Notes under the pieces: generated by a model
Told to the model about the DNA's origin: nothing
Database searches by the model: none
The model's input: the letters and a program-made list of their open reading frames with translations, nothing else
Source of the DNA: Octopus vulgaris
Taxonomy: Eukaryota
Assembly: GCA_951406725.2 (NCBI GenBank)
Contig: OX597836.1
Coordinates: forward strand, 47,864,001 to 47,928,000
Length of the DNA stretch: 64,000 bases
Reading direction: 5' to 3'
Made by a program: the position numbers and the translations under genes
Shown here: piece by piece, positions 24,661 through 63,167 of the stretch
Layout of the letters: every line of letters begins with the position of its first letter
Numbering within the stretch: position 1 is the stretch's first letter

Positions 24661-27600
24661 GTAAGTCACTTTCACTTTTCTTTTCCTTTTCAGCTTTGTT
24701 GTTGTTGATTTTTTTTTTTTTTTTAAAGCCTTTTGTATGGATTTCCTATTGTGGTACACCATTTATTAAAAGTTTATTATGAAGTGGCTCCCCTGCTTTG
24801 CTAAACTTTATTTCAATTAAAATGCTAAATAGTTATATTTCCTACCAGAAATTAGGTATTTTCTTTTCTTTTCTTTTAAATTCAATTCCTTGAAGGAAAG
24901 CATGAAACAAAATATAATTGGCAGAGTGGACATATTTCCTGATTGCCTAATTTCAAAGTTCCAGCTGCTGGCAGAGGAACTGAATACATGACTCTTGTGT
25001 ATTTTGTGGTACCCTAAACAATCCCACTACTACTATTGTCCTAGATTTGATGTGCTCAACTAATAATCAATTACATTTTAAAGCTGATGACTGCGGACAT
25101 GCCCAGAGTTAGTGATAACTTCCTAATAAAACATAAACTGTTCCCGAGCTAAACCAAGCTAAACCAAATCCTCTTCAAGTCCTTGCAGCATTATAATAGT
25201 TGCTAATTGAACTTGGTTGTCCTTTTTTATTTACATTTTTTTCAGAACCTCAAGTGTCCAAGATGTGAAGCTACACTTGTCAGTGCTCCTTCACTCAAAT
25301 ACCATTTAATGAGTATTCACCAAGCTCTGGTAAGCAAAACTCCTGATAGAAATAATTTCATGCTGTCCTTGGTATTGGTTCTTCTAACCCCAACCCATTC
25401 TCAGAATTATATTTTCCAATATTATTTACACAACTTTCATATCTATTCATAATAATAATGATAATGATAATTATAATAATAATAATTTCAATAAGCTTCC
25501 AGTGTTTACAACTAACAAACTTTTTATTTCTTTCAATTGAAAAAAAATGATTTTTCAAAAAACTTTGAAAAAATATTTTTGTGTGTGCCACTTCTTGATA
25601 TCATTGACCTAAAACTTGAGTCATGGATTCAGGACTTGTTACTTGATATTCCATATGGCAGGCAGCTATATGCAGCTCAAACTATAGTGAAACACTAAAC
25701 ATCTTTCTCAGTCCTTTCAAAATTAGTACCACAACCAATGGGCCACAATGTTATCCTTACAGTTTATTTTCTGTATGTTTGTCTTATCCCATTTTAATGA
25801 TTTTTTTTTTTTTTGTTTTTGGAAACAAAAGTTATTTTTCCATGTCAGGAGTTGAATCGATTCATTTTGGAGAGCTATTGATTCCATTTAATTAATGATT
25901 CAATCATTAGAAAAGTGCTGTATACTTGTTTTTTTGTATTTGATTGGTTTGTAAATTGCTTTTGCAATTTATTGAATTATCCCAGTGTGTTTGGGCAGTG
26001 CAGATGTATTATAATATGGTACAGAGGTGAGCATTTCAGAGTGATCTGTAGCATATGAGAATAAGTCATACTTCAGTGTTGCTGTGTGTCACGGAATATT
26101 ATGTAATGGAGTTGGGTTTTTGGCGTTCTCTTTGTGAAGCTGAATAAGTTTAGTTGACCAAATTATTTTGTTATGTCTGTGTGTTTGGTAATGACAACAA
26201 CTGAAACAAGCTAACTGTGCTTGGGCATTGCACGGTAGCTTTGATCTGAAAGTTTTTTAAAGAAGGCTTATCAAACCAGTATTTAATTAAGGTGATACAA
26301 TTGATGTTGCATATTTTCGTAATTATGTGTTGTGTATCCCCTTGGGTTAAGCAGAAGTTCTAGGACTGTTCTGATGCTGGTTAATTCTATGTCATTGTGG
26401 GCAATTAGGCAGGTGACCGATATGTTTCTAGCAGATGGTCACTAAGTTGTAACATGCGTGTTTAGGGGATTTTTACTTACTTTGTTTAGTGTTGGGTTAT
26501 CAGTATTTGTGTATGGCTTGACATGAACCAGACAGTGTTGTTTTAAAGCTTATTATTCGTAACAAAGTGCTGTAGTTCTTGGTGGAAAACCTGACAGTGT
26601 CCGTAAAGCAATGCCATTTTTTGTGTAGAGTGAAGTTTGTTCTTTAACCCTTTTGTTACTGTATTTATTGTGAGATGCTCTTTGTTTCTTTCAATTATTT
26701 TAAATATATCAAAGAATTTAGTAAAATAACTTAGTTATCATTCAGCTAGTTTTAGGAACATAAATTGCGACTAAGGTTTGGTGGAAGATTTTAATTCAAA
26801 ACTTATGGTATCAAGACATTTGTACTAAAGAGCCAGAGGCGGTTTCAGCCGGGTTGGGAACGAAAGGGTTAATATTATATTGTTGGATTTATTTAATGGG
26901 TGCTACTGAAACCAGGGTGTGATTATGTATTGCTGAAGCCGTTAAGCACTTTTATATCTGGTCTGGTAATGGGAACTTGGTAGTGTTATATGTTGTGAAG
27001 ATTGGAGATATTATGTGGTTGAATGGTGTATAAATTTGATGAGTGGGAAATTCATTTGTCCCCATTGTTGTTAGCTATTTTATTGAATGATCAGCAAAGA
27101 GAACAATTGAATATTTCACTGATGTTTGAAACTTATTTTCAGTCACTCAGGGAAGTACGTCTAAGTCTTGCCTCATGGGCAACAGGTTCTAATCTTTCTT
27201 TGCATTCGATCAGTTTGCAGGAAGATGTTCAAAAATCTATTTTAGAGTAACACGAAAAACATGCTACTAATAATGGTAGCATGCCTTTCATTTTTCTAGT
27301 CCAATAGACTAAGTCTCCAAGAGTGGAATCAAGTTTACATTTGTGCTTAACCAAAAGATATGATGGTGGTTACTATTGTAGTTGTTACATTTAAAAGAAA
27401 CATAGTTTACTTTGAACTTTTTTTTTCTTTGTTAGTCTATGAAAGTGGGAAAGTAGCCAAGTCATTTTAGGTCCTCTTATTTTGAGGGAAGTGGGGTAAC
27501 TGGTTGATAATAGTTAAGTGCCAAATACAGGTCGTCGTCAACTTACAACCACAGTTGGTTCAGACTGACTATTCATAAGTTGGCCTATAGGCCTACATAG

Positions 27601-63167: not shown

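What the first reader, a model, noticed from the sequence alone, without database searches (positions are those of the whole stretch)
25246..63167. TFIIIC110 (GTF3C2) appears fused to a ZNF512/ZNF512B-type zinc-finger module
Seen: exons B, C and D encode C2H2, C2HC and C2H2 fingers and splice in phase, without a stop, through linker exons E and F into the GTF3C2 WD40 exons. Knowledge (recalled, not aligned): human ZNF512 has a C2HC+C2H2 pair reading roughly LRAVLKRLGKLRC…YLYHVRKCGK, followed by RRSAKIAVYHLQEL. Here the sequence reads LKNIMKKLGKLNC…YQFHIEWCGR, followed by RKRKAAQKAIGSLHVM. Vertebrate GTF3C2 and yeast Tfc6 are not known to me to carry such fingers. ZNF512/512B are reported repeat-binding heterochromatin (SUV39H) recruiters. 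Inference: a core Pol III factor may be joined to a repeat-reading or silencing module in a genome full of B-box SINEs.
Basis: partly seen in the sequence, partly recalled or inferred. Interest (0 to 1): 0.85.

Follow-up and report, generated by a model that had tools for sequence, protein, structure and literature searches.

The report
TFIIIC subunit carrying ZNF512 zinc fingers
In octopus, one spliced gene joins the RNA polymerase III factor subunit TFIIIC110 to zinc fingers related to those of the vertebrate chromatin proteins ZNF512 and ZNF512B; molluscs and arthropods share this layout, so the two vertebrate proteins likely split off from this subunit.

Summary
Confirmed, but it is not an octopus fusion. 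The window holds the Octopus vulgaris GTF3C2 gene: 18 GT-AG exons, 1349 aa, no internal stop. One contig joins finger exons C and D to the first TFIIIC110-like exon in 4 of 4 runs.

The C-terminus is TFIIIC110 (E=5.5e-72). The three fingers match ZNF512B fingers 4-6 in order (HHalign 98.5%). ZNF512 and ZNF512B are the top zinc-finger hits in the PDB, though Pfam's ZNF512 models miss it.

The layout recurs in other molluscs, insects and crustaceans. A 38-residue piece of fish ZNF512B has one PDB hit, human GTF3C2. A milkfish model runs ZNF512 head-to-tail into GTF3C2. ZNF512/512B therefore likely arose by duplication and splitting of a finger-bearing GTF3C2.

Binding and silencing are untested, and no outgroup animal was sampled. 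This scan noted the same architecture before in an arthropod-like genome.

The parts
22960..24660 (+). Exon A: 567 codons, low-complexity and likely disordered N-terminal arm. The start codon lies in an upstream exon that was not pinned down.
   Evidence: conservation profile
24505..24534 (+). RRKQKSPRRI, matching the internal NuRD/RBBP4-interaction motif of ZNF512B (fish RRKQKTPKKF)
   Evidence: motif definition PMC11602157
25246..25329 (+). Exon B: C2H2 finger (equivalent of ZNF512B finger 4); phase 0-0, can be skipped in frame
38617..38766 (+). Exon C: long linker with helix, then C2HC finger (ZNF512B finger 5)
41947..42116 (+). Exon D: C2H2 finger (ZNF512B finger 6), long helix, start of basic RKAA helix
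44913..45082 (+). Exon E: end of basic helix and acidic linker; two in-frame donors (45052 seen in contigs, 45082 in database models)
45328..45511 (+). Exon F: linker and start of the TFIIIC110-homologous region
46621..46733 (+). Exon G: TFIIIC110-homologous segment ahead of the propeller
48986..63167 (+). Eleven exons (48986-49187, 50102-50216, 50801-50868, 50988-51094, 52268-52348, 52488-52797, 55247-55343, 56486-56611, 57621-57761, 59794-59883, 63030-63167) encoding the TFIIIC110 WD40 propeller and stop codon

Best explanation
This is the octopus gene for TFIIIC110, made as one spliced protein whose WD40 propeller carries an N-terminal arm with three ZNF512-type zinc fingers; this finger-bearing form is likely the ancestral bilaterian state, from which vertebrate ZNF512/ZNF512B likely arose by duplication and reciprocal loss. 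SHOWN: gene structure, splicing C to G, homology of both halves, presence in molluscs and arthropods, and a segment shared by vertebrate ZNF512B and GTF3C2. INFERRED history: a tandem duplication on the vertebrate line left an upstream copy with fingers plus basic helix (ZNF512, later duplicated to give ZNF512B) and a downstream copy with helix plus propeller (GTF3C2). [quoted passage not shown] The flexible arm would add a second DNA or nucleosome contact beside TFIIIC-bound sites (tRNA genes, SINEs, ETC sites). In cephalopods the RRKQKSPRRI motif would dock RBBP4/NuRD there and remodel or repress chromatin at B-box elements. Skipping exon B would change the finger set.
For: One transcript. 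Ten full-length cuttlefish-cluster ORFs of 1373-1379 aa lie on Logan contigs of 4.2-7.1 kb, among the 15 of 20 members listed. TFIIIC110 identity: E=5.5e-72 to 8CLI_C; VIA Z 15.7, rmsd 3.3, 208 aligned. ZNF512 homology: a vertebrate-only profile (113 of 119 fish sequences) hits the O. sinensis protein in one collinear stretch, 40.2 bits, E=2.5e-5 at database size 5.8e9, and Daphnia at 8e-15 over five fingers plus helix; octopus control loci reach at most 27.2 bits per stretch; HHalign 98.5%, 163 columns; 2CTD and 2GQJ lead all PDB zinc fingers. Breadth: 19 of the 21 new hits carry fingers and propeller. Split: ZNF512B helix hits only human GTF3C2 187-215 among 177,635 PDB sequences, E=6e-4; the helix profile scores the milkfish GTF3C2 half above 1000 of 1000 shuffles; milkfish model; human genes share a 417-kb interval (PMC2570409); no clear separate ZNF512 in the octopus genome. 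NuRD motif: strict form in 48 of 50 ZNF512B-like fish proteins, 0 of 69 ZNF512-like, 4 of 20000 shuffles.
Against: No amphioxus, tunicate, lamprey, echinoderm, cnidarian or sponge sequence was identified, and the finger tree is unrooted, so direction rests on the shared helix. The octopus helix alone is not significant against the ZNF512 helix profile (242 of 1000 shuffles reach it); the yeast tau91 counterpart scores only 4.6 bits. Bivalve and snail proteins score weakly on the ZNF512 profile (E 6 to 550), as does the B-skipped octopus isoform (E 19). Pfam ZNF512 models do not hit. The strict NuRD motif occurs only in the 4 cephalopods among 23 invertebrate proteins checked, so it may be convergent, or a nuclear-localisation signal. 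One search used a finger-containing query and only 1053-3005 aa candidates, so fingerless invertebrate GTF3C2s would be under-counted. The milkfish protein is one gene model and may be an annotation merge. The own-genome search works exon by exon and ranked exon C itself only 9th of 13, so it is a weak test for a missing paralogue.
Confidence: 0.66

Rival explanations
1. Protostome fusion: ZNF512 and GTF3C2 were separate neighbouring genes in the bilaterian ancestor, as in vertebrates today, and fused once on the protostome line.
For: The vertebrate genes are linked, which would allow read-through fusion. The fungal TFIIIC110 P0069, yeast tau91 and human TFIIIC110 lack fingers. No outgroup animal was sampled.
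Against: It does not explain why vertebrate ZNF512B and GTF3C2 both carry the same helix segment, while the fused proteins examined show one, between fingers and propeller, unless an earlier partial duplication is added.
Confidence: 0.17
2. The history is as in the best explanation, but the arm has an ordinary role: the fingers stabilise TFIIIC on DNA or bind another TFIIIC or TFIIIB subunit, and the RRKQKSPRRI stretch is a basic nuclear-localisation signal with no NuRD or silencing link.
For: The strict motif is absent from the other molluscs and arthropods checked. Other protostomes carry AT-hook-like GRP repeats in the arm. Finger residues differ a lot between lineages (long branches). PMC11602157 places an NLS in the same internal region of ZNF512B.
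Against: The octopus motif meets every residue shown essential in ZNF512B (R422, K423, P427, K/R429), lies upstream of the same finger, and is the most conserved 30-residue block of exon A across three cephalopods (0.63 against 0.00-0.50). 19 of 23 human RRKQxxP proteins have prior evidence of NuRD interaction (bioRxiv 2025.06.23.660971).
Confidence: 0.12
3. Artefact or chance: two adjacent genes merged by annotation, or generic zinc fingers that only resemble ZNF512.
For: No Pfam ZNF512 hit; Atlas search of the finger region gave generic C2H2 clusters; fold searches of the finger model gave generic fingers and coiled coils.
Against: Spliced contigs in 4 of 4 runs, uninterrupted ORFs on short contigs in a cuttlefish cluster, collinear profile matches including the unusual linker, and the same layout in two phyla.
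Confidence: 0.03

Closest known systems
Human TFIIIC110 / GTF3C2 (PDB 8CLI chain C) and yeast tau91 / Tfc6 (8FFZ, 9GC3, 2J04)
   Same: Orthologous WD40 propeller and the segment before it; a basic RRxAAxxA-type helix upstream of an acidic linker (aligned in context).
   Different: The octopus protein adds three zinc fingers directly before the helix and a ~570-residue arm with a NuRD-type motif; the finger part of the profile matches neither the human nor the yeast protein.
Vertebrate ZNF512B (KIAA1196; PDB 2GQJ)
   Same: C2H2 - long helical linker - C2HC - C2H2 - basic helix in the same order as fingers 4-6; RRKQxxPx[KR] motif in a disordered region upstream of them.
   Different: ZNF512B has four C2HC+C2H2 pairs (PMC11602157) and no propeller. 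Octopus lacks pair 1, the C2HC of pair 2 and pair 4; several arthropod TFIIIC110s keep the pair after the helix.
Vertebrate ZNF512 (PDB 2CTD; Pfam PF21276, PF21367)
   Same: Same finger triplet and helix position; lies near GTF3C2 in human and is joined to it in one milkfish gene model.
   Different: No propeller, no strict NuRD motif in 0 of 69 fish proteins; the Pfam models, which cover the first pair, do not hit the octopus protein.
Arthropod and other mollusc GTF3C2 database models (Daphnia, krill, termite, thrips, Lepidoptera, bivalve, snails)
   Same: Finger triplet, helix and propeller in one chain.
   Different: Arthropods usually add a pair after the helix; Lepidoptera have 5-11 tandem C2H2+C2HC units; none has the strict NuRD motif. 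Databases name them GTF3C2, uncharacterized, C2H2-type or, for one abalone fragment, 'zinc finger protein 512-like'.

Membership tests
TFIIIC110 / GTF3C2 / tau91 | C-terminal WD40 propeller whose best solved relatives are TFIIIC110 and tau91 | tested here: met
   phmmer E=5.5e-72 to 8CLI_C, next hit 0.012 (Argonauta orthologue as query); Foldseek and VIA top three hits are TFIIIC110/tau91
TFIIIC110 / GTF3C2 / tau91 | [quoted passage not shown] | not tested
   Known for human from PMC11811891 (passages); no complex prediction was run
ZNF512 / ZNF512B | C2HC+C2H2 fingers with long linkers, homologous by profile and in the same order | tested here: met
   controls
ZNF512 / ZNF512B | Pfam PF21276 / PF21367 above cut-off | tested here: not met
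   no hit in window exons or P0001-P0003; fish ZNF512 control hits both
ZNF512 / ZNF512B | Full array of three or four finger pairs in a stand-alone protein | tested here: not met
   three fingers only, joined to a propeller
ZNF512 / ZNF512B | Basic helix after the third pair (TPSGRVxRxSAQVAxFHL type) | tested here: inconclusive
   aligned in context but not significant alone for octopus
ZNF512 / ZNF512B | Fold of the finger pair matches 2CTD / 2GQJ | tested here: inconclusive
   low-depth models; only generic matches listed
ZNF512B | Internal NuRD-interaction motif RK(x)xxPxK/R upstream of the second finger pair | tested here: met
   sequence match only:
ZNF512B | Binds RBBP4/NuRD; binds pericentric TTC repeats; recruits SUV39H (last point recalled) | not testable with these tools
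   RBBP4 binding from PMC11602157; TTC binding from a passage of bioRxiv 2025.06.23.660971

The most novel reading that the evidence does not exclude
ZNF512 and ZNF512B, known as vertebrate repeat-binding heterochromatin and NuRD factors, are the detached N-terminal arm of a core Pol III transcription factor. In most animals TFIIIC itself carries this arm, and in cephalopods it recruits NuRD directly to B-box elements such as SINEs and tRNA genes, tying Pol III promoter recognition to chromatin silencing in one polypeptide.
Probability: 0.3. Interest if true: 0.85.

Novelty: new variant of a known kind. Interest (0 to 1): 0.64.

Why it matters
It gives an origin for ZNF512/ZNF512B, which the papers read describe only from vertebrates. 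It also shows that the human and yeast TFIIIC110 used for all structures may be the reduced forms among animals.

TFIIIC's roles at ETC sites and heterochromatin barriers are still described as undetermined (PMC12409998). A built-in finger arm related to a pericentric-repeat and NuRD factor makes that testable in Daphnia, insects or cephalopods by deleting one module. It also predicts a leftover functional link between vertebrate ZNF512/512B and TFIIIC through their shared helix.

Six literature searches aimed at this link returned no paper whose title or abstract start describes it. The library lacks most subscription journals, so this is not proof of absence from print.

Tried and rejected
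- Pfam scans: no ZNF512-named family on window exons or full proteins.
- Exon C alone against the PDB: ZNF512 second at E=0.5, not significant.
- ESM Atlas: the finger region gave generic C2H2 clusters; the milkfish protein gave two mostly arthropod WD40 clusters at 0.96, one named GTF3C2. Leads only.
- Fold searches of a finger-only model of the Elysia orthologue: generic fingers and coiled coils, ZNF512 structures not listed, uninformative.
- Own-genome searches: the top hit to fish ZNF512 (L001) and the PF21276 hits (4 of 67 fetched, one marginally over cut-off with neighbours) are short isolated finger ORFs without the ZNF512 linker; I read them as repeat-derived (inference). L002, L003, L005, L006 are generic C2H2 proteins.
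- The look-up of sequencing runs listed no holder on record as RNA.
- Four short cuttlefish-cluster proteins and one octopus one ending after exon A run into intron-like sequence, so they are not a short isoform.
- 'Octopus-specific fusion driven by SINEs' rejected on breadth.
- 'Milkfish retains the ancestral fusion' rejected: its fingers fall inside the ZNF512 clade and it holds a complete ZNF512 followed by a GTF3C2-like half with a second helix.
- No complex prediction was run: no RBBP4 sequence was in hand, and a solved ZNF512B-RBBP4 structure would bias it.
- No tRNA genes in the window.
- Of one search's 175 hits only 120 were listed; the other 55 were not seen.
- The primary pericentric-heterochromatin paper was not held; bioRxiv supplements were closed and the orthologue alignments in supplements of the ZNF512B papers were not read.

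Full report
1. The gene. The 1.7-kb open frame at 22960-24660 is 100% identical to an Octopus vulgaris protein named GTF3C2-like (P0001), with relatives in Argonauta and a cuttlefish cluster. Mapping these proteins back gave 18 coding exons from 22960 to the stop at 63167. All 17 introns are GT..AG, and the spliced frame equals residues 94-1441 of the O. sinensis protein without an internal stop. Exon B is phase 0-0 and is missing from 4 of the 5 O. vulgaris models checked, but present in O. sinensis, O. bimaculoides, Argonauta and cuttlefish proteins.

2. One transcript. Contigs of 4 runs from 4 studies (4 of the 24 listed) were laid on 38500-46770. In each, one contig of 2612-2686 nt covers exons C, D, E, F and G through four GT..AG joints with no mismatches. 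Exon G already lies in the region that aligns to human TFIIIC110. Junctions after G were not seen directly; the contig length fits C-to-stop plus about 420 nt to a TTA repeat (inference). Ten cuttlefish-cluster proteins of 1373-1379 aa come from contigs of 4.2-7.1 kb, among 15 of 20 members listed. They are uninterrupted ORFs with the fingers, which I read as spliced mRNA.

3. The C-terminal half is TFIIIC110. The Argonauta orthologue hits human GTF3C2 (8CLI_C) at E=5.5e-72, and the next hit is at 0.012. A model of its residues 555-977 (mean pLDDT 65.8) matches 8CLI_C and yeast tau91 ahead of all other chains.

4. The fingers are ZNF512-type. Profile methods were clearer. A search with exon C over 1.84 billion representatives gave 29 hits, one of them a ZNF512 with both Pfam ZNF512 domains (E=1.6e-4); a few hits (P0020, P0021, P0031) are unrelated repeats. 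A profile of eight invertebrate sequences ranks ZNF512 (2CTD, E=1.2e-4) and ZNF512B (2GQJ, E=0.021) above every other PDB zinc finger (next 0.053). In reverse, a profile from 113 of 119 fish ZNF512/512B proteins hits the O. sinensis protein in one collinear stretch (40.2 bits, E=2.5e-5 for 5.8e9 sequences), Argonauta at 2.5e-4 and Daphnia at 8e-15. Cuttlefish (0.089), snails and bivalve (6-550) are weak. Octopus control loci reach 27.2 bits at most in one stretch; generic arrays sum to 28.9. HHalign gives 98.5% over 163 columns, covering finger, linker, finger, finger and helix. By order these are ZNF512B fingers 4-6.

5. It is widespread. Fingers and propeller occur in one chain in a bivalve, a limpet and three snails; annelid, abalone and sea-slug fragments have the fingers. 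Of 26 hits, 21 were new; 19 of these carry both parts (Lepidoptera, thrips, stick insects, termite, leafhopper, krill, Daphnia, three unnamed), a fungal protein has the propeller only, and one is unclear. This search favoured long, finger-bearing proteins. Many arthropods have another C2HC+C2H2 pair after the helix, as ZNF512 does. An unrooted tree of 32 finger triplets has a spiralian clade (100/97), a ZNF512+ZNF512B clade (92/92) and scattered, long-branched arthropods. This is compatible with orthology but says nothing about direction.

6. Direction. The finger part of the profile matches neither human TFIIIC110 nor tau91. A 38-residue piece of tilapia ZNF512B around the basic helix has exactly one hit among 177,635 PDB sequences: human GTF3C2 187-215, E=6e-4. 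A ZNF512 helix profile also scores the GTF3C2 half of the milkfish protein above all 1000 shuffles, but not the octopus helix (242 of 1000). The milkfish model holds a complete ZNF512 followed by a GTF3C2-like half, each with a helix, and its fingers group with ZNF512. Human GTF3C2 and ZNF512 lie in one 417-kb interval (PMC2570409, one passage). No clear separate ZNF512 turned up in the octopus genome, though that search is weak. Tandem duplication with reciprocal loss explains two linked genes that both keep the helix; fusion in protostomes does not do so without an extra step. Non-vertebrate deuterostomes and cnidarians were not identified among my hits, so this remains inference (about 0.7).

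7. An addition to the finding. Exon A encodes RRKQKSPRRI at 24505-24534. PMC11602157 (section 33 and passages) shows that ZNF512B binds RBBP4/NuRD through an internal motif needing R422, K423, P427 and K or R at 429. The octopus motif meets all four and sits upstream of the equivalent finger. The strict form is in 48 of 50 ZNF512B-like and 0 of 69 ZNF512-like fish proteins (groups split by search rank), and in 4 of 20000 shuffles of the arm; the loose form arises in 1095 of 20000 and also matches AT-hook repeats. It is the most conserved block of exon A in three cephalopods. It is absent in strict form from the 19 other invertebrate proteins checked, so retention and convergence are both open, and binding is untested.

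8. How it likely works. [quoted passage not shown] The octopus propeller should do the same (inference from orthology). The fingers lie on a flexible linker (pLDDT under 50 over most of model residues 125-228) and would add a second contact with DNA or nucleosomes. ZNF512B is reported to bind TTC motifs in pericentric repeats (passage of bioRxiv 2025.06.23.660971); SUV39H recruitment is recalled only. With 3 of 8 fingers, the same specificity should not be assumed. I put the single protein at about 0.95, ZNF512 homology at 0.9, vertebrate splitting at 0.7, a chromatin-targeting role of the arm at 0.55 and NuRD recruitment in cephalopods at 0.45.

9. Known or new. It works like TFIIIC110 and passes the sequence and fold tests for that family. 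It is not a ZNF512 family member by Pfam or by architecture, but carries a homologous module. Searches for the link (listings only) found co-mentions in gene lists and no description. Automated annotations name one half or the other. Reviews still call TFIIIC's role at ETC sites undetermined (PMC12409998, passages).

10. Verdict. Observation confirmed; interpretation partly supported, with 'octopus fusion' replaced by 'widespread, probably ancestral architecture, split in vertebrates'. New variant of a known kind; interest 0.64.

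Noticed in passing
P0018, P0024, P0027-P0029, P0050-P0057 (Lepidoptera GTF3C2 models): The C2H2+linker+C2HC unit is amplified to 5-11 tandem copies ahead of the propeller, varying between species. A lineage-specific expansion in a core Pol III factor.
   Followed up: partly
P0161 (Chanos chanos GTF3C2 model, 1519 aa): A complete ZNF512 followed in frame by a GTF3C2-like half with its own basic helix; implies head-to-tail neighbours, either an annotation merge or read-through.
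   Followed up: partly
8CLI chain C residues 187-215: Human GTF3C2 shares a ~29-residue segment with ZNF512B; it is the only PDB hit of that piece. Function unknown to me.
   Followed up: partly
window 25246-25329 and 45052/45082: In-frame alternative splicing: exon B missing from 4 of 5 O. vulgaris models, contigs start at the first base of exon C in 4 of 4 runs, and exon E has two donors 30 nt apart.
   Followed up: partly
P0060 (termite) residues 231-418 and P0068 (unnamed, tick-like by my guess) residues 106-179: Extra finger pairs near the N-terminus, separated from the central fingers by a long disordered region, as pair 1 is in ZNF512B.
   Followed up: no
window 35904, 42431, 42846, 53805, 62607, 62792: Copies of a dispersed repeat with a B-box-like GTTCAAAT core in the introns; 7 pattern matches against a mean of 1.1 in 50 base shuffles, with a pattern I chose after seeing the repeat. 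Likely tRNA-derived SINEs.
   Followed up: partly
window 9430-10735 and 19641-21157: Long interrupted frames upstream of the gene that read like decayed retroelement (Penelope/LINE-type) fragments; label is my recall from the translations.
   Followed up: no
window 3696-3794, 19119-19298, 22519-22617: Database models use different upstream exons; the one used by the O. sinensis model has mismatches here, and the exon giving the conserved start Met was not identified.
   Followed up: partly
P0005, P0013, P0022, P0049, P0066: Other protostome orthologues carry 3-7 AT-hook-like GRP repeats in the arm; the three octopod proteins checked have none by the same pattern.
   Followed up: no
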